In this document: piece by piece, positions 1,559 to 62,857 of the stretch
Layout: each line of letters begins with the position of its first letter
Position numbering within the stretch: the stretch's first letter is position 1
Assembly (NCBI GenBank): GCA_965178125.1
Contig: OZ237769.1
Coordinates: 496,001 to 560,000 of the forward strand
Reading direction: 5' to 3'
Origin: Bilabrum cf. latius
Taxonomy: Eukaryota
DNA length: 64,000 nucleotides
Notes under the pieces: model-generated
Told to the model about the DNA's origin: nothing
Database searches by the model: none
What the model saw: only the letters and a program-made list of their open reading frames with translations
Translations under genes and position numbers: made by a program

Positions 1559-2180
1559 ATGGAAAGTACTTAGATGATTGCTGCGAGATAGGCTGGCGTA
1601 AAGGTTCAAGATTTACCCAAGGAAAAAGATGCTAAGGATGGTTTGTCGGTGAGTTGCACTATGGTCCAAGTTCCCCTGCGTTCTGAGTCGCTTGCAGCCT
1701 GTTGGCCGCAGTACGCGAGCTAATTTGTTACAAACACTCATAAATATCGTGCAGGGATGGGTGGATTGGGCTGTAGAATCGTATGACTATGTATACAAAC
1801 AGTCGCAACCGGTGAGGCTATTTCTTCGATTCTGGCCAAAGCAATTGCCTGAGTTTTCCATTGAAGTATGCGTAGAGTGCCTTTTGAAATACCATGTACT
1901 GTGCTCGCAGTGGCTTGGATACGGATAGAAGGCAGCCGGCTTTGCGATTGCGGCTGTGTTGCTGGTCGGCGTTCCGGTCATGCTTGAGAGTTCCCGAGAA
2001 GCATTGTTAGAGCACGAGAAGGCAAGACCAGCCATGCAGCGAGCAATGGAGGAGGATTTCCAGCGCAAGGCCATGGCCCAGCAGGAAGCGATGATGGCAG
2101 AGGCTAACCCGCTCAACATGGTCAAGGGCATCTTTGGCGGAGGAGGCAGCGGCGGCGGGGAGGCGGCCCCTCCTAAGTGA
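1559..2180 (+). CDS. TOM22: Mitochondrial import receptor TOM22-like; exons 1559-1648, 1755-1811, 1911-2180; in-frame TAG at 1571, 1589, 1926
   Basis: Spliced product has ...WLGYG(TAG)KAAGFAIAAVLLVGVPVMLESSRE..., resembling the Tom22/Tom9 transmembrane segment (G-K-A-A...V-V-P...E..RE) followed by a Gln/Met-rich tail. Introns are GTGAG..GCAG, stop is TGA. Start could be 1559 or 1574. Confidence 0.72.
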
Positions 2181-2709
2181 GCAAGGGAAGAGAGAGAGGT
2201 AATAGCAGAATAAAAGGATGAAGATAGGGATGCGATTCGTGTGCACAGCATATACAGGGATTCAATTCGTGTCTGTAGACCACATCACTTTGTGCCCACC
2301 CACTGGCACAGCCATTCGCCCGCCCCGCGCACAGAGAGCTATGCCCGTTCCACAACCAAGAGCTTCATCCGCCGAGTGACAACGGTTTTACTGCTCTGCG
2401 CGCTGTCCTGAACGCCCTGCCTAGCAGTCAGCCTTTCCTTGCTGCACAGCCCCGAGCATGACCGGCAGGTGCACGAGATTCAGAGCAAGCACCACCCGTC
2501 AACGCGGCAACACGGGCCTGGTACGAGAGATGGTAGACTGTGCTTAATGTATGTTAGGATACTCATTTCGTCCGGCAACTGCAGTTTCTGTGTACTAATG
2601 TGTGATGAGTGACACACGGGTCCTCGGGAACCTTCGGGCGTTGCCGCGCGTGCCACCGCGCGCAAGCGTGCGTGGGCAAACTCACCTAGAACAAGAGGTT
2701 TGCGAGTCC

Positions 2710-3901
2710 ATGGCAGCAATTGCACACCGGCAGGATGGTGCAATCAAAGATTCTCTGTACTACATGCTCGCCGAAACGTTTTACGACCTAGATCGGCTCC
2801 ATGGAGACGGGGACGGCGAGATTTCCATTGACGAGATGGAGCGGTATCCCGGTATTTCTCGGTTTGAAGCAGCCCAGCTATTCCGAGAAATGGACTTAGA
2901 CGGCAACGGATCAATTTCGTTAGAAGAGTTCTTACGAGTCCTGCTGCCTCGGATGCTCACCACCACAGGGGCAGAGCCCCCGGATTTGGACAACCTCACC
3001 ATCGAGACGACCACCAAGCTGCAAGAGGCGAGCAGACTGTTCTGTGGCGCCAGTAGCGGCGAGGCGCCAACAGTGGACAGCGCGATCAAAATGTTTCGAA
3101 GGCTCGACCGAGACGGCAACATGGTTCTGGATTCCGAAGAGCTCAAGGCGGGCTTGCGAGCAGTGGGCGCTGACGGCGAGTCGTTCTTGCGAGTGGTCGA
3201 CCGGAATAGGGATGGTGAAGTGAGTTTTGGAAGCTTTTCGGTGACATATTGCTCTAGAATACTAGCTAATGGGCCCTAACTCTAGAAGGAAGGGAGGGAG
3301 CAGGTATGCGCCGCCCAGCAAGCTCGGTCCCCTCAGGCTGGGACTCGACAGCGCGCAGTCATGCACTGGCAGGTCTGCATGGGGCACCGACCCTGCCACA
3401 ACTCGTGTGGACACGCGTTTCATCGCTCGATCCCCGCTTCTTGCCCTCCCCCCGCAGGTGTCTCTAGACGAGTTCCTGACGGTCCTGCTCGAGGTCACAT
3501 ATGGCCCCGTGGTGCCTGCTACTAGCAGAGGCAGAGCGCCTGAGCCCGGCAGGACCTACGGAGCGTGGGACTCTCGGCGTGCGACTGCGCCCGCCGGCGG
3601 GCATGGACCACTGGCAGGAGCATCGGGGAGCGGCGCACATCGAGCCATGCCGCCGCATGGGGCTGGGTTGGGTGGAGCTGGGACTCGGGCGGGTGCTGCC
3701 TCGTCGGGCGGGAGCTCCCATTCGCATGGGCTCGGGGCCTACCCAGGCCCACCCGGGGCGGTCCCCGATAGTACAGGTGGCATCGGCGGCGTTGGATTGT
3801 ATCCGCCACCAGCAGGTCTCGGTGGTGGCTCGTACTCGTCAGCGGGGGCAGGCGAAGGCAAACCAGCCAGCAACAAGGACAAGAAATGCATTGTATCTTG
3901 A
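2710..3901 (+). CDS. Calmodulin-like 4-EF-hand protein with a Gly/Ala-rich tail and C-terminal CaaX motif; exons 2710-3219, 3458-3901
   Basis: EF loops GDGDGEISIDEM, DLDGNGSISLEEF, DRDGNMVLDSEEL and DRNRDGE|VSLDEF (the last is restored by removing the GTGAGT..CCGCAG intron). Ends KDKKCIVS-TGA. Confidence 0.85.
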
Positions 3902-6663: not shown

Positions 6664-9173
6664 ATGCGAATACCCGCAGTACTGTTATGTTTATCGAGTA
6701 TAGCACTTGGGAAGCCCGGCGTGGTGCACGTTTAGCTCGGAAAGGCGTACCGGCAAGAGCGACCAGTGATCCGCTCGCGCACCCGGTTTCTGATCGGCCG
6801 TGAGGGCCATTCAGACAGCCGAGAGCTCGCAGAAGGAACATCTGAAAGCGTCCCTATATATGGAGACTTTAAATCGCTTGCGTGAGCAACTAAGTGGAAG
6901 ATGTGCGGCAGTTTGCCCCCTTGTGACTGCGAATCAGGTGCCTCCAATTGTGCCATCGTGTCACGCGCTTCCCTGTTCGCAGGTATTACTACGCGGATCT
7001 GTACTTAGGGACGGATAAACCCCAGAAGGTATCGGTCATCACGGATACAGGGTCGAGCCTGACCGCGTTTCCATGTGCGAACACGTGCCTGCCGGGCAAG
7101 TGCGGTCCCCACCAGAACGACAAGTTCGACTGCTCTAAGAGTTCCACTTGCCAGAAGAAGCACTGCTCAACAAGCTCCCAGTGCACGTACCGCTAGTCGT
7201 ACACTGAGGGCTCCCACCTGTACGGGGACATGTACACGGACCAAGCCTTCCTGGCCCCCCAGCAGGGGGACATTAGCGCCTACCAGCAGCTGGCCATCCC
7301 CTTCGAGTTCGGGTGCCACACGCAGGAGGGGGGGATGTTCACTTCACAGCTGGCGGACGGGATCATGGGCCTGGGGCAGGGCAGCAAGTCCTACACGGTG
7401 CACCTGTGGAAGAGCGGCATGCTCGCGTCGAACGTGTTCTCCCTGTGCTTCCACATGGATGGGGGGGCCATGTCCCTGGGGGGGTACGACCCCCGGCTGC
7501 ACGGGGGCAAGGACCAGGGGGGCGCGGGCCTCCAGTGGGCGAAGAACCCAGCCCCCAGCAGCGCCTTCTACCGCATCTAGGTCAAGGACATTCGGCTGGA
7601 CGGCGCCTCGGTGGGGTCCGCCAACCGCCTCAACCAGGGCCAGGGGTCCATCGTGGACTCCGGCACCACGTTCACCTACCTTCCCTCCCCGGTGTTCACG
7701 GCACTGAAGAAGAAATTACAGGCGTGGTGCAGCGCGGAGGGGGGCAGGTGCAAGGGCACGTCAGGCAGCGTGGAGGGGGAGTCGCTGTGCTGGCGGCTGA
7801 GCTCTCCCGCCGACCTGTCCACCTTCCCCTCCATGCAGATCGTGTTGGAGGGGCATGCAGGCGGGGCGGACGTGGTGGTGGATGTCAAGCCCGAGCACTG
7901 GATCATCAAGATGGACTGGGACGGGGCCTACTCGTGCATCGGGACCTACAGCAACGGGGGCGACGGCACGGTGCTGGGGGCCAACTCGATGCAGGGGTAT
8001 GACGTGGTTTTTGACAGGGCCGTGGGCAGGATCGGGTTTGCGCAGTCGGACTGCAAGCCGTCTGCCATGGGCCCGCAGCAAGACGGGGAAGACTCGTCCT
8101 CTCCGTCGCCGTCTCCTGAAGCAGACGTGAGTCCAGCGCGCGATGCCAGCCCTGCCGCCAGCACTGGGCCGGCTCCCACCTCAAGCTCGGCCGCGGGCCC
8201 AGGCGCCTCCCCTTCCCCCTCCCCTTTTAAGACCGGCAAGGACGAGGGCGAGGGCGCAGAGGGGCCTCTTCCAGGCGCCTCGCCCACTGCCTCGCTTGCC
8301 CCCACCGCGTCGCCTGCTTCCGGTATCCCGGCCCTGTCACCGCTGCCTTCCACGTTGCCCGCCCCGCAGGAGACGGGCGGCGTGGACGTGGGCGATGGCA
8401 CTGGGAGTGGGACCGGCACTGGGGGCGGCGGGGTCACGTTCGTGGCTGGGATGTTCGTGGGGGGGCTGGTGGTGGCGATGCTGGGGTTCGCGGGATTCGT
8501 GGCGCTGGCTCGGTTCGGGGGCGGGTTTGCGGTGCAGGTGGCTGGGGTGGAGGTTCGTGCTGGGAGGGGGCTGGGGGTGGGGGTGGGGGTGGGGGGCAAT
8601 GGGGGGTATGACCGTGTGGGGGGGCAGCGGGGGGCCGGTAGGGCGGCGGTGGGTCCGCTTGACGAAGAGGACGAGGTGTCGAGCGAGGTCGAGGCTAGTG
8701 ATGGCGATGTTGATGTCGATGCAGTGGATGGAGGACTAGGCAGGGGTGCGGCGGGTGTACCAGGCGCTTCTGCCTCCTCTGTGGGGAGAGGGACCTCTCG
8801 GCGGTATGTGGCGGAGGGTGTTCCATCGGGGCCCAGGCAGGAGGGCGGGGGTGGCAGGACCCCGCCTGCGTATTCTGACGTGGTGCGGAATAGGCAGGAG
8901 GGCCGAGGGGCCGACGAGGGCGTGCTGCTGGTGGGTGGGGGCAGGGGCATGGCAATGGACGACGGCGGGACCGACCCTCTGGGATCGGGCAGCAGCAGCA
9001 GCAGCGGGGACGAGGGTGGGCATGCCAACAGGGAGGGAAATGACGAGTAGGACGAGGACGAGGACAGCGGGTCTATTGGGGTGCCGGAGGGGGGACTCGA
9101 GGCAGCGGTGCGGGAGGCCGAGGCAGATGTGGAGGCTGGGCTGGAGGCGGCGGAGCGTGGGGAGAGAAGCTGA
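6664..9173 (+). CDS. Type-I membrane A1 aspartic protease, plasmepsin-V/ASP5-like; exons 6664-6881, 6983-9173; in-frame TAG at 6733, 7194, 7578, 9048
   Basis: Signal peptide MRIPAVLLCLSSIALG; IYGDFKSLAYYYADLYLGT..VITDTGSSLTAFPC; CTYR(TAG)SYTEGS; FGCHTQEGGMFTSQLADGIMGLG; second catalytic motif IVDSGTTFTYLP; VLGANSM..YDVVFDR..GRIGFAQSDC; Ser/Pro linker, TM helix, acidic tail; TGA at 9171-9173. Confidence 0.93.
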
Positions 9174-9419: not shown

Positions 9420-9878
9420 TCACCGGCCGGGCGGCGGCGAGAAGATCCCTCGCACAGACCCGGCCCGGCCATCGGGCCCAGGCGGGCTGAACACCCCAGG
9501 TGCAGTCTGAGGCGCGGCCCCCAGCGCCTCCGCGAAGTGTCTCTGCTCCTTGGGCCTGCTCAGGCTCGTGGCCACGGCCTTGACATACCCCGCGTCCAGC
9601 CCGCTGCCCTTGGCCTCCCCCGCCCTGGCCCTGTGGAAGAACCGCCGGAGCACCTCCTCGGCGGTGTGCCCCTGCATGGGGTGCACCTGGGCCCAGTCCT
9701 GCACGCTCTCGGCGCGGTGCATGCGGTACGCAGACATGCCCCCCTCCTCCTCGTCCTCGTCATCCTCGTCGTCCATGGCCAGGGCAGCCTGCATGAAGGC
9801 CTCCCCGCCCCCGTACATGGCCCCCTACAGAGCAGCCACCTGCTCGTCGGTCTCCGGCATCGGGGCGAACGGACTGCC

Positions 9879-9913
<35 letters not shown>

Positions 9914-12900
9914 CCCCAGCGTCATCCTCGTATATGACCCCATCCGCCCCACCAGGCCCCCCTCCCTCCTCTCCGTCCTCAGCGTCCCCCTGCAGGTCAC
10001 CCATGTCCACGTCCCCGTCCACGCCACCGTCCTCCCACTGCCCGCCCCCACCTCCTCCCATCCAATCGTCCCAGCCACCCTCACCGTCTCCCCCCTGCCC
10101 CTGTCCCCGCGCCCTCTCCCCCACCTCGGATGCGTCGATCAACGCCCGCGCCATGGACTGCCCCACCGCCACGGGAAGGGGCAGCTGCTGCTTCCTGGGA
10201 GGCCTCTCGCGGGCTGCTGTCCTCGTCCGCACACCCCCAGCTCCGCCCCCGCGTTCACCACCCCCACCACCTTCAAAGATCTCGTCGCCCTCCACGCGCA
10301 CCCCCCTCGCCGCCTCCACCACCCCGGGTACCTCCAGCAGAGCCGACACCCCAGCACACGCCAGCATCAGCGAAAAATCGCCCGAGATGTCCGGCAAGCC
10401 CTCCGCCGCGGCCACGAGCACGGCGGGCAGCAGCGGCCTGCACGCCTTGCCCGCCGCGCGCATCGCCGCCTCCATCGGGTCCTTCTCCCCGCGGCGCAGT
10501 GCCTCCTGCACCGCCCCCTCCGGCGGAACCACGGCGCCGCGAAGCAGGGACACCACCGCCTTGGGCCGCTGGGCCGCCGCCGTGAAGAGGATGGCCGCCG
10601 CGTACTGCTTGGCCAGGTGCATGCGGCACAGCACGAACTGACGGGCGGCCAGCAGCACCACGCTCGAGGCGGCCTCGGCCCCTACGCTGGGGAACAAGGG
10701 CCCGCCCACAGCCAGGCCCAGGGACCGCGCGGAGAAGAGCCGGTCCTGCTCCTACACGATCCTCGGGCGCAGCGAGCGAAGCACCCACCGAGCGGCCGTA
10801 GCGGGGAAGGGCGCTGCACCAGCGGGGGTGGGCAAAGTGGCCTTGGCGCAAGCCTCGGGAGAGGCATATGCGAGAGCTGCCACTGCATCCGCCGCCGCCC
10901 GATCGATGGAGGGGTCCTCCCCCGCCAGCGCAGGGCGCACCGCCTCGCAGACTGCCTTGGCCAGAGGACCCGGAGTGGGCCTGGGCCCGTGGTGCACGAG
11001 TCCTCGCAGGAGGTCGATGGCCTGCTGCCCGGGGCCCGAGAGGGTGGGGTCTGGCAGCCTCCGGACGATGGCCTGCACGGCCGGCATGAGGATGGGCGCC
11101 GCTCTACCCACCCCCTGCGGGGATGCCAGCACGATCAGCGCGGCGATGGCATAGCTGGACTCGCTCCCAAGGTCCGGGTCCTCCTGGAAGCGGGTCCACA
11201 CGCCCACGGCCGTGCGCATCAAAGGCTCCATCTGCTTCTCGGCCTCCTCTGGCGCGGCCTGGGCCGCCCGCGTGAGCGTGCTGACCAGCTGCGGCAGCGC
11301 CCCCCTCGCCGTCCTGGGCACAAGCGCGGTGAGCCTGCGGATGATCTCGGGCACCAGCGGCCGCATGCTCTCATCCCCCATGCCCTTGAGGAAACGACTC
11401 AGCGCCTCGGCCGCGCCCGCCCGCACCATCAGCGGCACTGTGGGGGCCAGTGCCCCAACCGCCTGCTTGGCGAACCGCTCGCTCTCGGCCTTGGGCAGGG
11501 CCCGCGCGTGCCTGGATGCGCACCAGAGCGCCCGCCCCCGCAGGTGGGCCAGCGCCGCGGGGCCGCGGGGGTCTCCCGGCGCCCTGTCCGTTGAGTCTCC
11601 TGCCGGTCCACCGGATGGGGGCTCCACCACTTTGGACACCCCGTCGATGCTGGCGGAGGCGGTGCATTTGAGTCGGGCGGGACCCGCCAGCGCCGCCTGC
11701 AGGTACCTGCTTAGGAGCGTGGGGGAGAGTGCGATGGGAGGCAGCCTGGGCCCTTTCCCATCCGGGGCCCCACCACTACCGCTGTTGCTACCGCTGGCCC
11801 CCTCGATCATGCCCCTGCGGCCCCACGCCCTCCGCAGCCGCTTGGCCACCGCCCCCAGGAGGAACATCCCGGCCTCGTGCACCTTCCAAGCCCGGCCCGC
11901 GGCGGCCATGGGCGCCCCAGGGGCCACCCGCTTGCCCACTGCCCCAAGCAGCGCGGCAGACCCCGCGTCCTCGCTGTACACCAGGGCCTGCTTCAGAGCA
12001 TCGGAGCACGCCTGCCGCACGGACCCGTCTCCCATCTGCTCCGCGTCGGAGGCGGCAAACTCGTCCGCGTCCCCGTCGGCCTCGAGGGACCCGTCCCGCA
12101 GCTGGGCGTACACCAGCAGCATCCCGCACAGGGGCTCCAGCTGGGGCCGGAGGGCAGCCTGCACGGACCGTCGGGGCAGCCCAGCCACCGTTGCAATGCA
12201 GTGCAGCCCCTGCGCGGCCAGCACGTCCACCCCGTCCGCATCCGCATCTGCGTCATATTCCACGTCCCACCCGCGGGCCTGCTCCGCCGAGGGAACACCA
12301 CCACCCGTGGTTCCCGATCCGGGGGGCGCGGTCCCTGAGGGAACAAATCGAACGTTCGCCAGTTCCTCGGGCCCCATCGCCCTGTCCTCCACCTCTAGTC
12401 GCACGTACAGGGGGGCAAGGCACCGCAAGAAGCCCACCGCCGCGGCGAGTATCCTGACGAGCAGCTTCTTCACGGAGCAGTGCTGCTCGAGCGAGTGCGC
12501 GGCGAACTGCAGAAAAGCCAGGGCGTCCCTCTTCTCCCCTGCCTGGGCGGGCAGCAGACCGGTGCACTGCAGGGACTGCGCCGCCTGGCCCGCCACCTCC
12601 ACCAGGGCCCTCCGTAGTAGCTCCTTCGCCTCCTTGTTCCCGCGTGCTCCCCCCGCTGCACCAGCACCCCCGCCGCCCATGCCCATGCCCATCTGCATGG
12701 CCTCCATGATCCCCCCGCTGGCCCTCAACTCCAGCTGGTCCAGCACGCTCCTCACGATGCGGAACACCCTGGCTCTGAGGCGGGGAGAGGCCGCCCCGGG
12801 GCCAGCACCCAGCACCTTGACGCACTCCGGGAGGAGGGCCTGCCCCGCCCGCAGTGCTGTGTCGGGGTCCATGTCCTGGGCGTAGTACTGCAGGCAGCGC

Positions 12901-22153: not shown

Positions 22154-22447
22154 CTCAAGCAATATGGTGGATTCCCAGCGCACTTGCAGTTGCTGTTCCT
22201 CCTTCGGGTTCGCTGTTTGTGCCGAAGGTTCGATTCAGGTTTGATTCGCCAAGCTGGCCTCCAACGACCCACTGCTGCTCTGGTTTGGAGATGTATAAAT
22301 GGCTTTTCTCGATCAATGCCAAATTTAATTGCCAGGTTTACAAAATCAGCGCAACAGTCTACAGATTCGCACCCGCACCCCCAGATCTCGTTCTGGCCGA
22401 CCGGCCGATTTCAAACATGCGAATCAGCAACCACATTTGCTCTGGAC

Positions 22448-43994: not shown

Positions 43995-44467
43995 CTCGGC
44001 TGGATTCATGGTTCGAATGATCGCGTGCTCGTGCAATTCATTACGGCGCACCCGTTTCATTGCCCGCGAAGTTCCGGGCCGACGACTCGGCGCTAGAGCT
44101 CTGCATCCGATCGGATCCTCTGACGTGCCTCACACATCAATGACGAACCAACATGTAGAGATATCTAAATTATTCGTTTGTTCTAGACGAACGACTTGTA
44201 GGCGTACCAATAATAAGGTCGCATTTACCATCGAGTCATGAACTTTAGATCAGATGATAGCCTCCGTGCGCAGAGATCTCTGTAGTCGGCTCTCGAGCGA
44301 AGAGACGATCGCAAGCTTCAGTAGCTGCTGTCCGCGCACCCCTACTTATACAGCTCGCCAAACATCGGGAGCGCTCTACTCCATGTCGCTGGTGAGATAG
44401 TTAATAAGTATTGCGCGTAAATGTACGTAGGCATATCGCAGGGTCGACTTTGGCATGGCTTCAATCA

Positions 44468-52700: not shown

Positions 52701-55700
52701 GCCGGGAGCGGTGAGGGAGTGCGCAGATGCCCCCGCAATGGGGGCGATGGGGGCGGGCCCCGCCGAGCCTGCTGATGGCTGCTTCGGCGCCCCGACCCCG
52801 GCCTCGGCGGATTCGGAGCCGGATGTAGCCGCGGGTGTCTACACCGAGGGTGTCTGCACGATGGGTGTTGCATCCCCCGCGCCTTGGTGCGTTGCGAGCG
52901 ATAGATGGGATCCTGTGTGACGAGTGTCAGCAGGGGCGGCCACCCGCAGCGGGTCCTGCCCTCCACCGCCCCCGTCGCCCTCACCCCCACCCCCGCTGCT
53001 GCCCCCACCACCACTGGTGTCCAGCAGATCCCCATGCGTGTCCGGTTTAACCGCCTGCAGCGTGGCCACGTAGAGCACCCTCTGGGGCCGGATGCCGGCT
53101 CGGCGGCGGCGGGAGGAAGAAGCAGAGGAGCCGCCCCCTCCCGCCGAGGAGCTGCGGTGGAGGGAGGGCGCACCCGCACCACCGTGCGATGCACCCGCGC
53201 CGTACCCCGGGGGGGACGACCTAAGCATGTCCCCCGGCTCACCGCTTGTTCCCTGCGTGGCGATCTGGGAAGCTCCCGCGAGTGCCGCACTCCCGTCCAC
53301 GGACAGAAGCCGCTGCAGACGGTCTCGCCTCGTGCCCCTGCCCCGGCCCCTGCCCCTGCCGCGCCCCCTGCCCCTGCCGCGGCCTCGTCCACGGCCCCTA
53401 CCTCTGCCTCTGCCTCTACCTCTGCCTCTGCCAGCCGCCGTAGGCACAAAGTCGGCGTCACTGCCGTCTTCGTCCGTGTCGTCCTCCCCCTGGTCTTGCT
53501 CGTCGCCCGACTCAACGATCTTGACGCTGCCGCTGCCGTCACCGTCACCCTCACTGGATGCTGCAGGGGTGCCCGGCTCCAGGGCATCCTCCCCGTCGTC
53601 GTCCTCGTCGTCCTCCCCCCTCCTCGCCCCCGCGCTGCTGCCCGCCGCCACGCCAGCCGCACCCTCAAGCCCCTCCTCCTCGTCCTCCTGCTGCTGCCCC
53701 GCCCTGCGCTTGGCCGCCGCCTCAGCCGCGCGGGCAGCCTCCGCCTCCTCCTCCTGCGGGGGCAGCACCGCCGTCAGCACCGGCACACCACCGTGCGCTG
53801 CACCCTGCACGGGCGCCAGCCCCTCGTCCCTCCCGTCCGGCTGGAACCACATGAGGTAGTAGTTCACGAACCCGACCAGTTTCCCGCCTTTCTCGGCCAC
53901 TAAGGTGAACTCGTTCTTCGCCCGGAGGCTCCTCTGGAAGTCCGCCTCCGTCGCGAAGGAGGGGTTCACCCGGTTCACCAGCAGGAGGGCCTTGGCGTCA
54001 CTCGGTTGGGCGAAGCGGAACGTCGTCCCTCCGCAGATGCCGCGGCGGGCGGCCGCGCGGGCAGAGGCAGCCAGGGCGGGGTTCTGCTCCATATCCGCGG
54101 GGTGGTCCAGCCGGAGGTGAGTGAACTCCTCCCCGCGCCACCACCCCCGGAACAGCAGCGAGGCGTCGCCCAGCGCCGCTGCCGATGCCCTGGCCGTGAT
54201 GGGGGCATGCGCATGGGCATGGGCATGCGCAGAGGCAGGTGCAAGGGGGGTACTGACGGGCTGGGCTCCCTGCTGGGGCTGCTTGTAATGGACAGCTGCA
54301 CCTGTCTGCGTGCCCGTGCCTGCCCCCGGTGTGGGGGCATGGGCCGGGGACCCCAGGGCCGCGCTTCCCATCGCTTGGGCTGCTGCTGCTGCCGTCTGCT
54401 CGGTGGCACCGATTTGGCCGCTGTTCCCCAAGGCCAGTTGGTTGGGAGCTGCGGTGGATACCGCGAGCATAGATGGAGACCCCTGGAGGGGTGACCCCTG
54501 GAGGGGTGACCCCTCCGGGGGGGAGGCCAGGTCGATGATCTCCGGGCTATCTCCTCCCTGCATGGGGGCACGGCCCAGGGAATTCCCCTGGCTCCCACCT
54601 AGCCACCCTCCCATCCGTGGGAAGGACGGCTGCATGGGCGTGGACGGTACTGCCGCAATCGCTGCCTCTACCCGTCCGCCTCCCAATCCCCCAGATGAAG
54701 AAGAAGAGGAGGAAGAGGAGGAGCCGATCTTGGCCCTCAGGTCTTCATCGGCCCACACCTCCTCGTAGAACCTGCCTGCAGGGGGGGTCCTCAGGGCCTC
54801 GTCGGCAGCCAGGGAACAAGGGTCTGACCGAGGCACCTGGAACGGCTCCATGAGCTCCCGCCAGCGGCTGTGCGCAGAGGGCGCCCCCAAGGCGGTGGAC
54901 TGCTTCTTCGGGGCTGCACCATCGCCATCACTGTCGTTCTTGCCCTGACCCACAGTGCTGCCGGAGCCGCGGCTACCGGCGGTCTCCTCGTCTTCGGTAT
55001 CATCGTCGTCGTCGTCATCATCCTCTTCCTCTTCGTCTTCTTCTTCCTCCTCCTCGTTGTCGTCGTCCTCGTCATCGTCCTGCCCACCGCCCTGCTTGCT
55101 GCCCCCCTCGCCCTCGGCCTCGGCCTTGGCTGCAGCTCTCCGCTCCGCTTGCCTCTTCTTCCTTCGCTTCTTCGCAGCTGCCACCGCAGTCGTCAGGTCG
55201 CAGGCAGCCGCGAGCGAGGGCCGCAGCCACGGCTGGGCCTCCTGCAGGATGCGGCGGCGGGCGGCCCTCTTGCCCAGCGAGGGCAGCTCGAGGACCATCC
55301 AGGCGGCCTGCCGCGCCACTTTGGCCAGGTGCGAGGGAAGCGCGCCCACGGCGGAGCGAAGGTTCGTCAGGCATTGTTCGATGCCGCTGCTCGTGGCAGC
55401 CTGGGCCCCGGCTGTCGCTGCGGCACCGCTGCTGCTGTTCTCTGCTCCTTCCTTCTCCTCTCCGACTGTTCCCTGCCCCGGGCCCTCGCTAGCAGGACTC
55501 GTGCTCTCCTGCAGCCATTCAAGGGAGGGCGCCCTGAATGCATCGGCCGAGTCCGGCTGGCTCCATCCCCAGGCCACCCCCTCGGGCGCAAGGGACTGCT
55601 TCATGGCGGATGGCAAGGGGGCGTCTGCGAGCGGCAGCTGCAGGGCGCCCGATCCCGCTCGTAAATCGGGCCCAGATCCACCGGTGGATTGGCGCGACGC

Positions 55701-58700
55701 CCCATCGAGCAGCCGAAGGAACGCGGTCGACTCGATGCTGCGGCTTTCACCCCTGCCGCCTGCTCTTTTTCCAGACCCAGCAGCCCCGCCCTCGCCCTCG
55801 CCCCCCCTGGCAGTCGCAGCAGCAGCTGCAGCCCTGCGCCCCGCCGCCTCGACCCTGGCCAGCAGCTCGGCAGGCTCGCCCCTCCTCCAGGTCCTGTGCT
55901 GCAGCAGTCCAGAGAATGCCTTCTCCACGGCCCCCGCCGCCACAGGCACGAAGTACGGAGCCACGAGGGGCCAAACGTCCTCGGCCTCGCGCGCCTTGAT
56001 GGCAGTTGACAGCATCCTGCCGGCAGAGGAACCCTCTCCCTTCTGCAGGGCAACGGCCTCCTCCCGGGCTTGTTCCCTGCGGCGGCGGCGCGCGGACATG
56101 CGTGCCCTCCGGGCCGTCCTCCGCGCTGCCCTCTCCTGGTCGTCCTCTTCCTCCTCCTGCCCGCCCTCTCTCTCCTCGTCGCCGTCCTCCTCACCCTCCG
56201 GCAGCAGAGGGAGCACACCGCCCATGCCGAGAGGCTGTTCCCCCGTCCACTCCTCCTCACCGTCGCCCCACTCGCCCGCGAAGGGAGCACCCCCGCCCCC
56301 CGCACCGTCCGCACCCCCGTCTTCCCCCACCCCCCCCGAGGGGTCAAGCCCGATACCCGCCCCCCCACCGATGCCACCCCCCTCCTCCTCGTCCCCGCTG
56401 CTGGCCAGCACCGACCCGCCTTCGTCCTCTCCCCCTGCACCCACCCCGCCCCCCTCCATGTCCCCCCCTTCCTCCTCGTCCTCGCTCTCCCCGTTCCCCA
56501 GCCGGAGCCGGATCTCGCGCCGCCGCACCCGCAGCGAGTTCCGCATGGCGCCGCGCACCGCCCGGGCGGCTCTTCTCCGCAGCCGCCCCAGCCTCCTCAT
56601 CTCTCGCACCCTCTCCCGCTCCCTGCCCTTGGCCCTGCGCTGGGCCGCCCGATCTCCGAGGGCCTTGGTGGGGCCGAGTCCAGCACTCGTCACACCACCG
56701 CTAGCGTCCACAATCGGCGCGCTTCCCCGGCTGCTTCCGAGCTAAACGCCTGCACCATCCCCGGCACTATTAGCAGCAGATCCGGCTGCCCCTGCCCCTG
56801 CCCCAGCCCCCGGCCCCAGCCCCTCACCTGGGTCAGCCCCCGCCTGCACCTCCCTCGCCCTCCTGCGACTGGCCCTCTTGTTCCTCCGCTGTTCCCTGTC
56901 CTCTCGACGGGCCGCCACCAGCATCTGCAGCCGCTGGCGATGCACCCTCGCCGCCTCTTTCCTCCTGGCCAGCCGCCTCTCGTCTGCTGCCTGGGCCCGC
57001 ATCACGGCGAGGGGCGGGGGCACCCCCGGGAGCAGGTTGATCTCGGCCTCGTGTTCCCCGACCGCCAGCTGCACGGCCGTGTGGGGGAACACGCGGGGGT
57101 CGTGCCGCCTGCAGTACAGCGCGAAGGACCCCAGGTCGGTTCCTTTCTGCCAGAGGAACCTTCGCTGGAACCCCGCCGCCTGCGCGCAACTGGCGTGCGC
57201 GGCATACCCGCACGCCCGGTACTCGCACTGGGTGATGGCGCCCCTCTGCGTGTGGCACAGCCTGCAGACGTACTGCCACCTCGAGGCATTCACGTCCTCC
57301 ACCCCCTCGATCGGGGTCAGCCGCCTGGGGTCCCCAAAAGATGCCCCAGGGACGTGCAGCCCGCACACCACGTGCGCCCACAGCAGGGGGGGGCTCCGGT
57401 CCGCGGGAACGCCCGTCCTCCCTTGTTCCCTGGCATGTTCCCTGGCCTCCAGCCCGTCCAGTGCGGGCTTCAGATCCTCCGGGGCCACGTACCCGTACTG
57501 GGCGGGCGCCCCGCAGCCGACGGGGTAGGGGGCAGTGGAGGCTCGTGCGGTGGCGGCCAGCATGCTGGTCAGGTCCCTCCAGGGGCGGCCGGCGGGGCGG
57601 GCGCGGCGGGGCCTGGGCAGTGGAAGCGGGGCCTGGGCCTGGGCCTGGGGCGGGTCCGTCCCTCCGGTTGCACTCGTCACACCCGCGCCGGCACCCGAGC
57701 CCCCTTCCTGTTCCTAGTCCCCTCCATCCACCTCTACCACTTCGTCATCCTCGCCCTGTTCCCCGTCGTCGTCCTCACTCTGTTCCCCGTTGTTCCCTCC
57801 CTGCCCGTTAGCGCCCTCGTCGTCTTCGTTTTCCTGCATTGACGCCTGCCCGTTGGACGACGGTGCTTGTGACAATGCTGACGATGACAGTGGCGGCTGG
57901 GCGCCAGTACCAGGGGTCTCCTTCGATTCGCTTGTTCCCTGGTTCGTTGTTCCCTAAAATCCAGCGGGTTGTCCCGGTTGCAGGGTCTGGATGGTGTCCT
58001 CTGGCGTGGGCAGCTTGAGAGGCGTCTTGCGCTTGTACCCTGTCTTTAGCCCACCCCGCCGTCGGCCCCCCCTGCCTCTGCCCCTGCCCCTGCCCCTGCC
58101 ACCCCCAGCAGCGGCCCCCCACCGCATGGAGGCTGCCTTCCTGAGGTCACCGCTCACTGGCTTGAGGGCGCCGCCCTGCCATGGACACAGGCAGCAGTCC
58201 ACCTGCGCAGAGCACAGCCCCGACTTGCAGGGAGCGCACAGCCAGAAGTAGCCCTGCGCCAGCGTCTCACGGCGGTCCAGGGAACCGGTGCCTGCACCAC
58301 CGTGCGATGCACCCGCGCCCGGCTGGGCAGAATGGTCCTGGGCCGCGGCACGGGCCGATGCCCTGTCCGCCCTTCCCTTGCTGTTGCTCCTCCTACTCCC
58401 CCCAGGTGTCCCCGCCAGGCCCAGGCGGTGCGGCCCCAGGTCCTCCTGGGGGGCCCCCGGCTCGCAGGGGACCCCATGCTGGGGAAGGTCGTCGGCGTCC
58501 ACCCTGGGGGTCGATGCCCCCATGAGGGGGGTGGCGCGGACGGCCCACGCGGGGAGGGCCTAAGCACCCCCAACTGTTCCCTGCCTGCTGGTGGGTCGGT
58601 CCGGGGTCGCCAGTGCCCCCCCTTCCCCTGCCGCTGGTCTCCCTGACGCGGCGCTCGAACGCGCGTCTGCGCCGGTGCCCTGGCCCCCAAGCGGTTGCAA

Positions 58701-60919
58701 CCTCCTCCACGCCGCCACCAGCTCAGCGTCCGCCACGCCGTAGCAGCGCTGGTGCACCGCCAGCCCGCACCCAGGGCCTCCGCACACGATGATCGGATCG
58801 TCCGCGAAGGACTCTGCCCGGCCGCACACTTCGCACGCAGGCAGCTGCCCCCCTCGCGCCCTGCCCCTGCCGCCGCCGCCGTTCTGGGGAACAACGGCAC
58901 CGGGGGCGTTGGCCTGGTTCGAGTGTGACCCAGCCACCGGGTCCGTGGGTGCGGCATGACCCGCGGCGGCTCCACCAGCTGCATTGCTGCTGCTGCTGCT
59001 GGTGGTGCTGGTGCTAGCCCCCCCTGATGGCATCCAGAGCACCCTCCGGGCCCTGGCCACCCCCTTCCTGTGACTCACCAGCAGCTCCCCGCCCACCCTC
59101 AGCCTGTCTCTAGAGGTCTGCGGCCCTTCCCTCGGGAGCGATAGCCCGCCCCTCCCCTGCTAGTGCCTGCCCTGCTCCCTCCTCCAGATCCCATCCACGT
59201 CCCAGTCCTGCAGACCGTCCCCCGCGCCCTCGTCGCTCGATGTCATGTCCCCGCAGCTGGAGGCACCACCGTCCACCACGGGACGAAGAGCCGCCGAACC
59301 TTCGCTGGGAGGTGCACCGTGGGATCCCAGTTCCTCCTTGCGGATGGATCCGAGTCCGTTGTTCCCCAGGACGGGCTCCTCCGCGTCCAGCACGCTGTCA
59401 AAGGAAGTGGACGAGTCGTAGGCAGGGCCCCTCACCCTGTGCCCCAGCAGCGTGCCTTGCCGCAGCTCCACACGGCGTCGAAGCAGAGCCAGCCGACGCC
59501 GCTCCATCCGCCCCGACTCTGCCGCAGCCCCCGCTGCCCCCCCAGGACCCCCACCGGCATTGACACCGTCGCCGCCGCCCGAAGTGGCGCCGCTCCTGCT
59601 CCTGCCGCGCCCCCTACCGCGCCCCCTTCCCCTTCCCCTGCCCCTTCCCCTGCCCCTGCCTCGCCCCCTGCCTCTTCGGCCGCGCGTGCTTCCAGTGTCC
59701 GGGCCCGCTGCCGAGCTGGAGGACGAGGAGGAGGCTCCCAGGGCGGAGGAGGCGGCGCTGCTGGACCGTAGCGGGCTGCGGCGCCTGCTGCTGCTGCGCG
59801 AGGTCTCGGGATCGTGTCGGTCCATCCACTGAGGCAGGAGGGACTGGGATGGCTCCGGCTGGGATTGCCCAATTGGCTGCCGCTCCTTTCTCAGTCTGGC
59901 TGCGAGCGGATAGAAATAGATTGTGTGGGAGAGGAGGACAGGAAGAGGGTGGAGAATGCCGAGAGTATGCTTAGAGAATTTCGAGCAAGGCATGATAATT
60001 CGTGGGTACGGAGATTTAGTGCGAACGCGAATCTGCTCGCCAGGAGCCGACCGCAGGGGATGATGCGGTCGCCCCCTGTGCCACTGGCCGGTGCAATTGC
60101 CACGCCACCACCGCAGACCGCACTGGCGCTCCGTTTCGCAAGCTTTTCTTACCGTCTTCCAGAGCAAGCTCTTTATCTAAAATGGACTTGGCTTTGGCTT
60201 TCATTTGGATGGCGAGCTTCGTCACGTCATTGTCGGGGCCATTGTACTCGACACAGTTGGATATGATCTGCTCGAAATCGGCGATTAGCTCCTTCACGCG
60301 GGTGTACTGACCCGCCGACACTTTCTGCGAGTGCGGCATGTAAACATAAATCATGGAAAATATGCGGGGGCCTGAGTTCGGGGCACGGAGCTTGCATGCA
60401 CCGTTTGCTGAGCGTGCCCGGGTGCCACCGAGGCGCAGCTGCATCGGCGGAGAGGCGCCCGCCCCAATGGGAGGCGCAGCGGCTGGCAGAGGCACGCATT
60501 CAACGCGTGCTTTTCGAAGGGAGCGGCGCATGGGAGCTGCATGGAAGCGGCATGCGTGATACGCAATGACGTCACTGGCTGGCTGGGAGTCGCGCGGCGG
60601 CTGACTGCCGCGAGTCCCCGGGGTGCAAGGCGGTTCCTGCCCTCGCTCCTTCGGCGAGGCGAGGGGCCTGATGACGCCCCAGGGAGCGTAGGCGATTGCA
60701 CGAATTACATTGAATACACACACTTGATTGCGGTGCCAAGCGCACTCTCACCTTTCGCATGTCGTCGAAGCACATGGGCTTCGAAATGACCTGGTAGTAG
60801 TCGGGCACTTGAGCCGTATCAACTGGCTGCTGAAAAAAGCTGTAGTAGTCATGCTGAGACAAGCGTGCAATTAGTTTGGGCAGCCTCTCTTGCAGCTGTC
60901 GTGCGGCCAGCGCGCTCAT
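46704..60919 (-). CDS. Giant chromatin reader/writer (~4,510 aa): bromodomain, PZP, GNAT-like acetyltransferase, PZP, PHD; exons 60919-60752, 60324-60153, 59899-46704; 13 in-frame TAG
   Basis: Bromodomain FFQQPVD...VPDYYQVISKPMCFDDMRK|KVSAGQY...IISNCVEYNGPD. BRPF-type PHD [46 protein letters not shown] with C..CP..GGALKP, and a second such module. PHD YCLCRR...MVCCHKCNEWYHFRCMGV...WLCHRC. One frame broken only by TAG; TGA at 46704-46706. Confidence 0.87.
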
Positions 60920-61513
60920 GCTGCACGGCGCACCACCAGCTGCGACGCAAGGATGATCTGAGCGAGCTGGGCAGGTGAATGTCCGGACAGCCAGATCGGC
61001 TCAGCGTGTGGTACTTTGTGCATTAGTTTGCATTAATACGGTCGATATCGTGTCGAGTATTGCACCAGGCAGACCAGCGTCTGCATGCAAATCTGCATTG
61101 AGCGACGCAGTTGCCAAGAATACATCTAATCAACCGCCAGGATCCTGCTTCACTCGAGCAGGTATTTTACTATAACCTGTTTCAGCCTCATCGAAGTTAA
61201 AGAGCTGAAAAACCCCATACAGGCGAGAAATATCGAACCAAGGCACCTAACCAGAGTCTAGTGCGCCTCCGAAGCCAATTGGGACGATAAGATTGCTCGA
61301 CTATGCAACAAACTGGAATCAATGCAACTCACGTATGTCGAATAGATCAGGTAGACACCTATATGATCGAGTGATCGAGCGCAATAAGACAATTTCGCTC
61401 GATCACTTTTGGATTCAACCTCCAAATCAGATTTCCGACCAGAAACTATACGCTACCCAGAAGCGAAGCGAACCGAATTGAAGAATCCAGCGCATATCGT
61501 ACCCCCTGAAGCA

Positions 61514-62857
61514 ATGAAGGTTGTATCTACCGTGCTATTGTACGCGGCTGCATCATTGGCTTGCTGTGCCTGGGCTCAATCTGATGACCACGACCTGCCT
61601 CACGCCAACGATGACGATGAATTGGAAGGAATGTGCCGTGAAGGTGAGCATTTGGACAGTGACTAGGCGTGCTTGCGCACTGCACGTATCATTTTGATCA
61701 TGCATTCGTTTATTTGAGACGGTATGAAAGCGCAAGCCACGTGACGATTTCCTTGCATCATGGCATTGCGAAGTGTTGCTATTTCATGTGCAACCCGTTT
61801 TTTGCCATTCTGCTCGTTAGAATCTCGCAGAATTCGAGTGCAAGTACCAGCACGTGGATGCTGCAAACGGAAAGTACTACGGTTTCGATTTGAGGCCCTT
61901 GTGCCAGGACTCGATCCCGAACATGTACAAGATCTGTGAGAGGGCGGTTTGGGTCCGTGTCGAGTGGCGGAGAGCCTTGTGCTCCCATCCTCGGCGATTG
62001 GACGCTCTGCTACCTCCCGCACTTTATATTTGTAGTACTGGTGTTCATGTTTTACACGTTCTTACCTCTAAATCGCAGAGGATGAATCCGGCCACACGTA
62101 CCGCTTCAACATCTGCGGCGACGTCGGGCTCAAGTGCGCCCCCAAGGAGTGGGTGAGCCTCTACGACCACGGATCGGCCATGCAGACATGGGGAGACGTC
62201 CCCGAGTGCGACCTGACGGACCCCACGACGTACTGCACCGACATCGAGGACGGGCAGGCGCAGTGCTGCTCGTCTCCCTGCCAGATCCTCGGGGTGGGCG
62301 AGCCCTACTTTGAGCTACTCGACCGCAAGAACCCAGAGACCGGCGGGATCCGGGTGCTGCACCAGACCGTCCCCGCCCACGCGGACGACCCCTACAACTG
62401 CCCCTATGACCCCGACACGGGGGGCTTCTACCAGCGCGAGATGAAGATCGAGATCAGGTGCAACCCAAAGGAGAAGGGCCTCCAGGTCCAGTCCGTGGTC
62501 GAGAACCCCAACCGCCCCTGCTCGTACACGATTGCGGCCCAGTCCAAGTACGGCTGCGGCGCCAAGGTGACGAGCGCAAAGTCGGCAGGCAAGAGCGGCG
62601 GCAAGGTGGCCGGGGCCTTCTTCGGGGGCGTCTTCGCGACCCTCATCGTGGGCGCCGTCGGGTTCTACGTGTACCAGAGGCAGCAGATGGGCCTGCCCCT
62701 CCTCCCCTTCGACAACGCCCCCATCGGCAGCGGCGCGGCGGGCAGCGGCACCAGCAGCGGGTCCAGCGCAGGTGCCCCGGACGCCTCGTTCACCGGAGGG
62801 GCCGGCTCGGGGAGCGGCGAGGGCGCGGCCCAGGCAGGCACCTACTCTTCCCTCTGA
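61514..62857 (+). CDS. MRH-domain type-I membrane cargo receptor (M6PR/ATG27-like); exons 61514-61643, 61831-61935, 62079-62857
   Basis: Signal peptide, FDLRPLC, YRFNICG, IEIRCNP, CSYTIAAQSKYGC, TM helix and cytosolic tail ending in YSSL (YxxPhi). One TAG is formed across the exon 2/3 junction. TGA stop. Confidence 0.83.

What the first reader, a model, noticed from the sequence alone, without database searches (positions are those of the whole stretch)
1559..62857. Variant nuclear genetic code: UAG reassigned to a sense codon (Gln) while UAA and UGA remain stops
Seen in the sequence: about 61 in-frame TAG codons in 10 genes (TOM22 3, aspartic protease 4, IPO9 3, FKBP 4, CTL 1, VTA1 3, USP7 25, ankyrin 4, Bromo-PHD 13, MRH 1). 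Conserved domains continue in frame across them, and no internal TAA or TGA was found in these CDS, including single exons of 16.3 kb and 13.2 kb. Genes end in TGA (14) or TAA (1), never TAG. Established knowledge: in most eukaryotic variant codes UAA and UAG are reassigned together. Uncoupled UAG-only reassignment (NCBI table 15-like) is rare, reported for example in the fornicate Iotanema spirale and some ciliates, and as UAG=Leu in a rhizarian. Inference: this GC-rich, stramenopile-looking genome may be an independent, possibly undescribed case. It would need a tRNA-Gln(CUA) and an eRF1 that ignores UAG but still reads UAA and UGA.
Basis: partly seen in the sequence, partly recalled or inferred. 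Interest (0 to 1): 0.97.

Follow-up and report, generated by a model that had tools for sequence, protein, structure and literature searches.

The report
Eukaryote reading UAG as glutamine
This GC-rich stretch of nuclear DNA comes from an unplaced microbial eukaryote that very probably reads the stop codon UAG as glutamine while still ending its genes with UGA or UAA, a rare change of the genetic code that a related species shares.

Summary
In 14 coding blocks from 13 genes (15,671 codons) the reading frame holds 53 TAG, no TAA and no internal TGA. The two other frames hold 56/62 TAG, 17/28 TAA and 212/211 TGA. TAG is therefore tolerated in frame like any triplet, while TAA and TGA are excluded.

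All 13 gene ends I modelled are TGA (12) or TAA (1). No run from four studies differs from the window over 27000-46999. Two spliced, hence RNA-derived, contigs keep TAG.

The meaning is glutamine:
- One TAG lies in a column that is Q in 115 of 145 aspartic-protease homologues.
- Three TAGs lie inside or at the edge of CAG runs.
- In ten codon-to-residue comparisons with a relative, five pair TAG with Gln, two of them read in DNA as TAG/CAG and TAG/CAA.

The relative's contig L001 has a 902-codon frame with 11 TAG and no internal TGA or TAA.

No tRNA-Gln(CUA) or eRF1 could be examined, because no genome is held. The lineage is unplaced: RPL7A is at most 60% identical to any named organism.

This code type (UAG=Gln only) is already known from Iotanema, Protocruzia and some phyllopharyngean ciliates. 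I rate this a new member of a known kind, apparently unreported.

The parts
1559..2180 (+). It has about 3 exons, TAG codons at 1571, 1589 and 1926, and a TGA stop at 2178.
   Evidence: It is conserved in relative L001. Our TAG 1926 pairs with the relative's CAG, and the relative's TAG pairs with our CAA. No Pfam hit.
488..1231 (-). RPL7A main exon: 0 TAG, 0 CAA, stop TGA directly after the conserved C-terminal Tyr.
   Evidence: Pfam L7Ae, 5e-24. Homologues end at the same Tyr. Codon counts.
6987..9173 (+). Plasmepsin-V/BACE-like aspartic protease with TAG at 7194, 7578 and 9048; stop TGA.
   Evidence: Pfam Asp, 1.4e-28. TAG 7194 aligns with Q of plasmepsin V and with Q in 115 of 145 homologue representatives. 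The column at 7578 is variable.
9420..13495 (-). Importin-9-like gene: main exon 9420-13187 with 2 TAG, and the IBN_N exon with TAG at 13211-13213; stop TGA.
   Evidence: Pfam IBN_N 2.1e-8 and a weak Xpo1 hit. TAG positions.
19895..22234 (-). Nucleolar-type FKBP with 4 TAG. One, at 20657-20659, lies inside (CAG)3-TAG-(CAG)4-CAA. Stop TGA three codons after the FKBP domain.
   Evidence: Pfam FKBP_C, 4e-20, reaching profile end 94/94. DNA of the run; coordinate.
25688..26743 (+). Vta1-like last exon with 2 TAG, the last one 51 codons before the TGA stop.
   Evidence: Weak Pfam Vta1 hit. TAG positions.
27726..43994 (+). Giant single-exon USP/UCH deubiquitinase gene (5,422 codons from the first ATG) with 24 in-frame TAG; stop TGA.
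   Evidence: Pfam UCH, 3.8e-46. Frame counts; ATG. The relative's fragments give Q at TAG 31917, 38925 and 39096, H at 37620 and A at 41979. X6 contigs with 0 differences cover 11 of these TAGs; a twelfth (40305) lies on a contig with 1 difference at a place not reported.
44392..44525 (+). 134-nt GT..AG intron of the ankyrin gene; it contains the TAG at 44477.
   Evidence: Runs X6 and X7 carry the joined form, while X1 runs straight through the intron. Ends read.
44526..46519 (+). Ankyrin-repeat gene, second exon: TAG at 45092, 45485 and 46328; stop TAA.
   Evidence: Pfam Ank_2, 2.6e-142. The spliced X6 contig covers 45092 and 45485, and the spliced X7 contig covers 45092, each with 0 differences.
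46704..59993 (-). Giant single-exon PHD-finger protein gene with 13 in-frame TAG. These include 48057-48059 and 48033-48035, which flank a (CAG)7 run. Stop TGA.
   Evidence: Pfam PHD, PHD_2 and zf-HC5HC2H. DNA reads CAA TAG (CAG)7 TAG. ATGs at 59993 and 59825.
13907..14554 (-). Rab GTPase exon: 0 TAG, C-terminal CAC prenylation motif followed directly by TGA.
   Evidence: Pfam Ras, 2.3e-47. Stop.
15535..17205 (+). NPL4-like gene: 0 TAG, stop TGA.
   Evidence: Pfam NPL4, 6.1e-11. Counts.
22448..24400 (-). Choline-transporter-like main exon: 0 TAG, 0 CAA, stop TGA.
   Evidence: Pfam Choline_transpo, 1.8e-80. Counts.
62072..62857 (+). MRH/ATG27-like last exon: 0 TAG in this exon, stop TGA.
   Evidence: Weak Pfam ATG27 hit. 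Counts.

Best explanation
The window is nuclear DNA of a GC-rich microbial eukaryote whose genetic code has lost UAG as a terminator. It uses UAG as a third, rare glutamine codon: about 8% of Gln codons here, and about a third in one gene of a less GC-rich relative. UGA is the main stop and UAA a minor one.

Shown here:
- UAG is translated through in at least nine genes.
- It stands where homologues have Gln.
- It is kept in mRNA.
- It carries no special downstream context.
- It is avoided in the most codon-biased genes, exactly as CAA is.
- The trait is shared by a second species.

Inferred, by analogy with Iotanema and phyllopharyngean ciliates: decoding is by a cognate tRNA-Gln with anticodon CUA, which cannot read UAA. 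That explains the uncoupling of UAG from UAA. It would work together with an eRF1 that no longer recognises the G of UAG; in Iotanema the GTS motif of eRF1 is mutated. UAG codons then arise from CAG by ordinary C-to-T transitions.
For: 1. Frame statistics. There are 53 in-frame TAG against 0 TAA and 0 internal TGA in 15,671 codons. Off-frames hold 56/62 TAG, 17/28 TAA and 211/212 TGA.

2. Meaning of the codon.
- TAG 7194 sits in the motif C.Y.Q.Y.EGS, where 115 of 145 covering representatives (150 listed) have Q. Plasmepsin V has Q there as well.
- TAG lies inside or at the edge of CAG runs in FKBP and in the PHD protein.
- Q occurs within +-2 residues of TAG at 19/208 = 0.091, against 0.086 around Q itself and at most 0.058 around any other residue.

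3. The relative (RPL7A 88% identical).
- Our TAG pairs with its Q at four sites: USP 1463, 3799 and 3856, and the small TM gene at 1926, where the relative's codon is CAG.
- Its TAG pairs with our CAA at one site.
- The other pairings are H, A, V, K and P, once each.
- Two of its truncated protein fragments end exactly at our TAGs 1665 and 5394, and one ends at our Q 3936.
- Its contig L001 carries a 902-codon frame with 11 TAG, 0 TGA and only a terminal TAA, while the off-frames hold 17/39 TGA.

4. Stops. Gene ends are 12 TGA and 1 TAA here, and TGA, TGA and TAA in the relative. Four ends are fixed by homology or motif: RPL7A, FKBP, Rab and the small TM gene.

5. Reads. No differing letter was reported in four runs from four studies over 27000-46999. 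X6 and X7 carry the spliced ankyrin transcript with TAG 45092 retained, and X6 also retains 45485.

6. Context. The base after TAG is distributed like the base after CAG, and no read-through motif appears.

7. Codon bias. The four most codon-biased genes of the 11 counted (RPL7A, NPL4, CTL and MRH) have 0 TAG and 0 CAA. TAG occurs in the genes that also use CAA.
Against: - No tRNA gene lies in the window or in L001, and no genome is held. So neither the decoder nor eRF1 has been seen.
- There is no peptide evidence.
- Five of the ten TAG-to-residue pairings with the relative are not Q (H, A, V, K, P), although all five lie in variable stretches.
- 'TAG never ends a gene' is partly circular, because I defined gene ends by TGA or TAA. 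In the PHD gene the last TAG is only 11 codons before the TGA.
- X6 is flagged by the tool as 'probably DNA', so only the spliced contigs are certain RNA.
- The search behind the Asp column used Q at the TAG. That is one residue in 358, and the later alignment used X.
Confidence: 0.88

Rival explanations
1. Ambiguous code. UAG is both sense and stop, with termination decided by context such as nearness to the poly(A) tail, as in Condylostoma, Parduczia or karyorelict ciliates.
For: - My gene ends were defined by TGA or TAA, so a real terminal TAG followed by a short open tail would be missed.
- The PHD gene's last TAG lies 11 codons before its TGA.
- Only 13 gene ends here and 3 in the relative were seen.
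Against: - None of the 13 ends here or the 3 in the relative is TAG.
- Four ends are fixed by homology or motif (RPL7A Tyr, FKBP domain end, Rab CAC, the small TM gene in two species), and all four are TGA.
- In the other eight TAG-bearing genes the last TAG is 41 to 254 codons before the stop.
Confidence: 0.06
2. UAG is read through but not as pure glutamine. It could be another amino acid, or a mixture inserted by near-cognate tRNAs (Gln, Tyr, Lys, Trp) without a dedicated tRNA.
For: - Five of ten pairings with the relative are non-Q.
- The column at TAG 7578 is variable.
- No tRNA(CUA) has been seen.
Against: - The conserved column is Q in 115 of 145 homologues.
- TAG sits inside or at the edge of CAG runs.
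- The codon-level pairs are TAG/CAG and TAG/CAA.
- The neighbour profile matches Q best.
- No other residue recurs among the pairings.
- Twenty-four read-throughs in a single 5,422-codon protein would need near-complete efficiency.
Confidence: 0.04
3. Artefact or non-coding explanation: assembly or sequencing errors, RNA editing of UAG to CAG, unrecognised introns, or decaying pseudogenes.
Against: - Four runs from four studies show no differing letter.
- Spliced contigs keep TAG.
- The frame runs on across 24 and 13 TAGs with no TGA or TAA.
- The relative conserves these genes and has TAGs of its own.
Confidence: 0.01

Closest known systems
Iotanema spirale (Fornicata) nuclear code: UAG=Gln, UAA still a stop (Panek et al. 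2017, seen only as described in PMC9161772 and PMC11687900)
   Same: Only UAG is reassigned, to glutamine, and UAA is kept as a terminator. The proposed mechanism is an eRF1 that no longer reads the G of UAG; in Iotanema its GTS motif is mutated to GGS (PMC9161772, passages read).
   Different: - RPL7A of our organism is at most 60% identical to any named sequence, and its best named hits are stramenopiles, not metamonads.
- Our data are genomic, with 16-kb exons and 65% GC.
- eRF1 and the tRNA were not seen here.
- In Iotanema the change is confined to one lineage; here two species share it.
Phyllopharyngean ciliates and Protocruzia tuzeti: UAG=Gln only (PMC11687900)
   Same: The codon table is the same, like NCBI table 15. 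A tRNA with anticodon CUA cannot read UAA, which the paper offers as the reason UAG can evolve on its own (Discussion passages read).
   Different: This is not a ciliate-like genome. It has 65% GC, giant exons, and no affinity to ciliates in the RPL7A hits apart from one MMETSP Tiarina record at 58%.
UAR=Gln codes (NCBI table 6): many ciliates, Hexamita, Streblomastix, ulvophycean green algae, Amoeboaphelidium
   Same: A stop codon is turned into glutamine.
   Different: UAA is not a sense codon here. There are 0 in-frame TAA in 15,671 codons against 17/28 in the off-frames, and one gene ends in TAA. The relative has 0 internal TAA in 902 codons, where CAA occurs 9 times.
UAG reassigned to other residues: Rhizaria sp. 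exLh and some phyllopharyngeans (Leu), Scotinosphaera (Ser) (PMC11687900)
   Same: UAG is reassigned on its own, uncoupled from UAA.
   Different: The residue differs. The evidence here points to Gln, not Leu or Ser.
Viruses with TAG=Gln: code-15 phages (PMC9523058, abstract seen) and giant-virus MAGs best called with alternative codes (PMC13524828, passages read)
   Same: The codon change is the same.
   Different: Those are viral genomes. This is a cellular nuclear genome with ribosomal-protein, importin and Rab genes and a spliceosomal intron.

Membership tests
Nuclear code with UAG=Gln only (NCBI table 15-like) | In-frame UAG inside conserved protein-coding genes, at about the frequency of a neutral triplet | tested here: met
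   53 in frame against 56/62 in the off-frames over 15,671 codons. The genes are confirmed by Pfam.
Nuclear code with UAG=Gln only (NCBI table 15-like) | UAG aligns with glutamine in homologues | tested here: met
   Q in 115 of 145 homologues at TAG 7194. Five of ten pairings with the relative are Q, and two of those are read in DNA as TAG/CAG and TAG/CAA. TAG occurs in or beside CAG runs.
Nuclear code with UAG=Gln only (NCBI table 15-like) | UAA and UGA are not sense codons and do terminate genes | tested here: met
   0 TAA and 0 internal TGA in frame against 17/28 and 212/211 in the off-frames. Gene ends are 12 TGA and 1 TAA.
Nuclear code with UAG=Gln only (NCBI table 15-like) | UAG is not used as a terminator | tested here: inconclusive
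   0 of 13 ends here and 0 of 3 in the relative. Only four ends are fixed independently of the stop definition.
Nuclear code with UAG=Gln only (NCBI table 15-like) | UAG is present in the mature mRNA (no editing) | tested here: met
   The spliced contigs of X6 and X7 keep TAG 45092, and X6 also keeps 45485. No differing letter was reported over 27000-46999. Other TAGs are covered only by contigs that could derive from DNA.
Nuclear code with UAG=Gln only (NCBI table 15-like) | A cognate tRNA-Gln with anticodon CUA | not testable with these tools
   No tRNA in the window or in L001. No genome is held.
Nuclear code with UAG=Gln only (NCBI table 15-like) | eRF1 altered in its stop-codon recognition motifs (GTS, NIKS, YxCxxxF) | not testable with these tools
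eRF1 is not in the window and no genome is held.
UAR=Gln code (NCBI table 6) | UAA is also a sense codon | tested here: not met
   0 in-frame TAA here and 0 internal TAA in the relative's 902-codon frame.
Ambiguous stop/sense codes (Condylostoma type) | The same codon also ends genes | tested here: inconclusive
   No TAG terminator among 16 gene ends. The sample is small and the definition partly circular.
Programmed stop-codon read-through | Rare sites with a specific downstream context | tested here: not met
   52 sites with a +4 base distribution like that after CAG and no recurrent downstream codon. A single gene holds 24 sites.
Pyrrolysine decoding of UAG | UAG at Pyl-specific sites, together with the pyl genes | tested here: not met
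   UAG stands at Gln positions. Whether pyl genes exist could not be tested without a genome.

The most novel reading that the evidence does not exclude
The window and its relative belong to a deep, so far unsampled eukaryote clade. No named organism is closer than 60% in RPL7A, and the nearest aspartic-protease homologues are all environmental. In this reading the clade evolved the UAG=Gln-only code independently of Iotanema and the ciliates. Cells of this kind would then be candidate natural hosts of the giant viruses that earlier findings of this scan describe as reading TAG as glutamine with no decoder of their own (e1-5306704, e1-5306705). The host link is pure conjecture; my one scan of viral contigs, with the Rab protein, found only generic hits of at most 52% identity.
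Probability: 0.45. Interest if true: 0.82.

Novelty: new member of a known kind. Interest (0 to 1): 0.7.

Why it matters
Nuclear genetic-code changes are rare. Cases where UAG and UAA have parted ways are rarer still; PMC11687900 lists Iotanema, Protocruzia, a few phyllopharyngean ciliates, one rhizarian and Scotinosphaera.

- **Comparative value.** A further, non-ciliate lineage would give an independent replicate for asking how eRF1 and a tRNA(CUA) evolve to split UAG from UAA. This one has genomic DNA and spliced (RNA-derived) contigs in public runs of several studies, and a second species sharing the trait.
- **Mutation-pressure models.** The genome is GC-rich, so UAG is the stop codon least disfavoured by composition. 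That bears on models of codon capture under mutation pressure.
- **Practical consequence.** Standard-code gene callers cut this organism's proteins at every TAG. The database fragments P0122 to P0126 are examples. Its proteome in public collections is therefore fragmented, and any annotation of this assembly should use a table-15-like code.
- **Host candidates.** It also provides a cellular candidate type for the unknown hosts of TAG=Gln giant viruses.

Tried and rejected
- **Whole genome.** None is held, so no Codetta-type inference, tRNA(CUA) search or eRF1 check was possible.
- **tRNA and RNA families.** No tRNA (ARAGORN) in the window or in L001. No Rfam match in the window at gathering thresholds.
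- **Sequencing runs.** No listed holder is on record as RNA. X6 and X7 are treated as RNA only because they carry the spliced form.
- **PDB searches.** The Vta1 C-terminus gave only chance matches (HIV protease, E about 0.4), and the importin N-terminal exon gave none.
- **Ankyrin repeats.** The TAGs fall at variable repeat positions, so they do not reveal the residue (read).
- **ESM Atlas.** A search with the choline transporter only confirmed the family and gave no usable taxonomy.
- **RPL7A tree.** The careful tree did not finish. The quick IQ-TREE tree of 121 rows leaves the clade unplaced on a stem of 1.1 changes per column. The rows were the top hits only, so there are no broad outgroups.
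- **Names of the closest aspartic-protease homologues.** All are environmental and unnamed, apart from one bin labelled 'archaeon'.
- **Viral-contig scan with the Rab protein.** It returned 80 loci, all at most 52% identical, so there is no sign of a virus linked to this lineage.
- **First wide search with the 5,000-residue USP region.** It found only 2 fragments, because low-complexity words filled the candidate list. A narrower region found 3 more.
- **Earlier findings.** None exist for this genome or for look-alike stretches.
- **Explanations rejected.** Editing, sequencing error, hidden introns, pseudogenes, pyrrolysine, and context-driven read-through (see rival explanations and membership test).
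- **Supplementary files of papers.** Tables of genetic codes in PMC13524828 and PMC11687900 could name further UAG=Gln lineages that I could not see.

Full report
**What the window is.** The 64-kb window is 64.6% G+C and carries ordinary eukaryotic nuclear genes. Pfam supports:
- RPL7A (488-1231, minus strand)
- an EF-hand protein (2599-3276, plus)
- a plasmepsin-V/BACE-like aspartic protease (6987-9173, plus)
- an importin with an IBN_N domain (9420-13495, minus)
- a Rab GTPase (13907-14554, minus)
- NPL4 (15535-17205, plus)
- an FKBP (19895-22234, minus)
- a choline-transporter-like protein (22448-24400, minus)
- a Vta1-like protein (weak hit)
- a giant USP/UCH deubiquitinase (27726-43994, plus)
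- an ankyrin-repeat protein (44526-46519, plus)
- a giant PHD-finger protein (46704-59993, minus)
- an MRH/ATG27-like protein (weak hit)

The label 'TOM22' for the small membrane-protein gene at 1559-2180 got no Pfam support. No bromodomain was found in the PHD protein. No whole genome is held for this window.

**The observation.** With only TAA and TGA as stops, two frames stay open for 5,487 and 4,498 codons. They hold 25 and 14 TAG. In the first frame the counts are:
- reading frame: 0 TAA, 25 TAG, and only the terminal TGA
- the other two frames: 6/12 TAA, 16/23 TAG, 84/85 TGA

Over 14 coding blocks of 13 genes (15,671 codons) the reading frame holds 53 TAG, 0 TAA and 0 internal TGA. The single TGA counted is the small gene's own stop at 2178, which my range overshot. 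The off-frames hold 56/62 TAG, 17/28 TAA and 212/211 TGA. TAG is thus as common in frame as out of frame, while the other two stops are excluded. Chance, hidden introns and pseudogene decay cannot produce this pattern.

The 13 gene ends are TGA 12 times and TAA once. Four ends are fixed independently of how I defined ends, and all four are TGA:
- RPL7A stops right after the C-terminal Tyr that its homologues share.
- FKBP stops three codons after the end of the Pfam profile.
- The Rab gene stops right after a C-terminal CAC motif.
- The small membrane-protein gene ends within a few residues of its orthologue's end.

I count 53 in the blocks, plus 2 in the small gene's N-terminus.

**Are the TAGs real, and are they in the RNA?** Runs from four studies hold the stretch. 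I laid four of them on 27000-46999, and none shows a differing letter, insertion or deletion.

X6 and X7, from two different studies, carry a joint that skips 134 nt with GT..AG ends (intron 44392-44525). X1 runs straight through it. So these two contigs derive from spliced RNA.
- The spliced X6 contig covers TAG 45092 and TAG 45485 with no difference.
- The spliced X7 contig covers TAG 45092 with no difference.
- Further X6 contigs with no difference cover 11 TAGs of the USP gene. A twelfth (40305) lies on a contig with one difference whose place is not reported. The tool flags X6 as possibly DNA, so I count only the spliced contigs as certain RNA.

Editing and sequencing error are therefore excluded for the covered sites.

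**Which amino acid?** Four independent lines point to glutamine.

1. *A conserved column.* I searched the aspartic-protease domain against 1.84 billion cluster representatives and re-aligned the 150 best hits with X at the TAGs. TAG 7194 falls in the motif C.Y.Q.Y.EGS. Of the 145 hits that cover it, 115 have Q; the rest have I 7, V 6, E 4, R 4, L 3, M 2 and K, A, T, Y one each. Plasmepsin V has Q there too. The second TAG, at 7578, lies in a variable column (R 17, Q 16, T 15 and others) and says nothing.
2. *Repeats.* FKBP has (CAG)3-TAG-(CAG)4-CAA, and the PHD protein has CAA-TAG-(CAG)7-TAG.
3. *Neighbours.* Q or TAG occurs within two residues of a TAG in 19 of 208 positions (0.091). The value around Q itself is 0.086, and around every other residue it is at most 0.058.
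4. *A related species.* RPL7A has a 99% identical copy from another strain and an 88% identical one from a relative.
   - The relative's protein fragments (77-89% identical, cut by standard-code gene calling) put Q opposite our USP TAGs 1463, 3799 and 3856, H opposite 3364 and A opposite 4817.
   - Two fragments end exactly where we have TAG (1665 and 5394), and one ends where we have Q.
   - The metagenome contig L001 is syntenic with window 487-2170. There our TAG 1926 (GYG-x-KAAGF) faces the relative's CAG, and the relative's TAG (SKS-x-PV) faces our CAA.
   - In the poorly conserved N-terminus, our two TAGs face P and K.
   - A further fragment puts V opposite TAG 7578.
   - In all, five of ten pairings are Gln and no other residue recurs. 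Gln makes up only about 4-5% of these proteins.

**The relative shares the code.** L001 carries a 902-codon frame, open at the contig end. It has 11 TAG, 12 CAG, 9 CAA, no TGA and only a terminal TAA. Its off-frames hold 17 and 39 TGA. Its RPL7A and small membrane-protein genes both end in TGA. The trait therefore belongs to a clade, not to one strain.

**UAA is not reassigned.** If TAA followed TAG in the ratio CAA:CAG (89:555), about 8 in-frame TAA would be expected here. About 8 would also be expected in the relative's frame, where CAA:CAG is 9:12. None is seen in either.

**How it probably works.** TAG has no special context. The base after it is A 0.23, C 0.25, G 0.37, T 0.15, against 0.16, 0.29, 0.44, 0.11 after CAG. 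It is absent from the four most codon-biased of the genes counted, which also lack CAA, and present where CAA is used. It behaves as a rare synonymous Gln codon.

By analogy with the described cases, I infer a tRNA-Gln(CUA), which cannot pair with UAA, and an eRF1 that has lost recognition of UAG. In Iotanema the GTS motif of eRF1 is GGS (PMC9161772, passages read). In phyllopharyngean ciliates the CUA-anticodon argument is made in the Discussion (PMC11687900, passages read). Neither molecule could be looked for here: no tRNA lies in the window or in L001, and no genome is held.

**Who is it?**
- After its own strain and the relative, the best RPL7A hits are only 60% identical or less. The named ones are mostly stramenopiles (Bicosoecida sp. 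ms1, diatoms, a pelagophyte, oomycetes), plus dinoflagellates.
- A quick maximum-likelihood tree of 121 rows puts window, strain and relative together (support 100) on a stem of 1.1 changes per column, with unresolved placement.
- The nearest aspartic-protease homologues (43-50% identical, plus a 69% identical fragment that is probably the relative's own) are all environmental and unnamed.

The 'stramenopile' label is thus unproven. The genome is clearly not ciliate-like, and the RPL7A hits give no sign of Iotanema or other metamonads.

**Known or new?** According to PMC11687900, UAG=Gln with UAA kept as a stop is known from Iotanema spirale, Protocruzia tuzeti and two phyllopharyngean ciliate lineages. 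UAG=Leu is known from a rhizarian and other phyllopharyngeans, and UAG=Ser from Scotinosphaera.

Six full-text searches found no report of this code in any other eukaryote lineage. I therefore file this as a new member of a known kind.

Earlier findings of this scan describe giant viruses that read TAG as Gln and lack a decoder of their own. A cellular lineage with exactly this code is the kind of host they predict. I have no evidence of a link; a scan of viral contigs with the Rab protein gave only generic hits.

**Verdict.**
- Confidence that UAG is a glutamine codon here, with UAA and UGA as the stops: 0.88.
- Main remaining rival: a dual sense/stop use of UAG (0.06).
- Interest: 0.7.

Noticed in passing
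window 27000-46999: The same DNA, at 95-100% identity, is held by public runs of four studies filed under four different organism labels. Depth is about 150 in one study and about 2-20 in the others. The organism may be a frequent associate or contaminant of other cultures or samples, or it may be labelled inconsistently.
   Followed up: no
window 33003-33669: Summed contig depth in X1 jumps to about 6,500, against about 150 elsewhere. Many false joints and loose ends cluster at 33088-33112 and 37504-37527. These look like acidic low-complexity (GAG/GAC-rich) coding repeats shared with many other loci.
   Followed up: no
window 27726-43994 and 46704-59993: Two neighbouring genes are single exons of about 16.3 kb and 13.1-13.3 kb. 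They encode proteins of about 5,400 and 4,400 residues that are mostly Ala/Gly/Ser/Glu-rich low-complexity sequence around small catalytic or PHD domains. The relative conserves long stretches at 77-89% identity, so the 'spacer' sequence is under some constraint.
   Followed up: partly
L001 3248-5956 (minus strand): In the relative's less GC-rich contig (54% G+C), TAG is about as common as CAG and CAA in one gene (11:12:9). In the window TAG is about 8% of Gln codons. So TAG usage tracks base composition. The gene also has a tandem repeat, VNIPxHEAHAS, with TAG in both units.
   Followed up: partly
proteins P0061 and P0141: Two NCBI proteins labelled '[archaeon]' (locus prefix EON62_) are eukaryotic: an RPL7A (60% identical to ours) and an aspartic protease (47% identical). 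That bin seems to contain contigs of an unsampled eukaryote somewhat related to this lineage.
   Followed up: no
window 488-1471 (minus strand): The RPL7A frame stays open upstream of the conserved part and holds one TAG (residue 32 of the frame). That stretch differs between the two strains and is probably intron or 5' sequence, so this TAG is not counted as coding.
   Followed up: partly
proteins P0122-P0126: Public protein collections hold this clade's giant proteins only as fragments of 112-742 residues. The fragments start at internal Met codons, and three of the five end at or next to positions where we have TAG or Gln. This is the signature of standard-code gene calling on a TAG-recoded genome.
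   Followed up: yes
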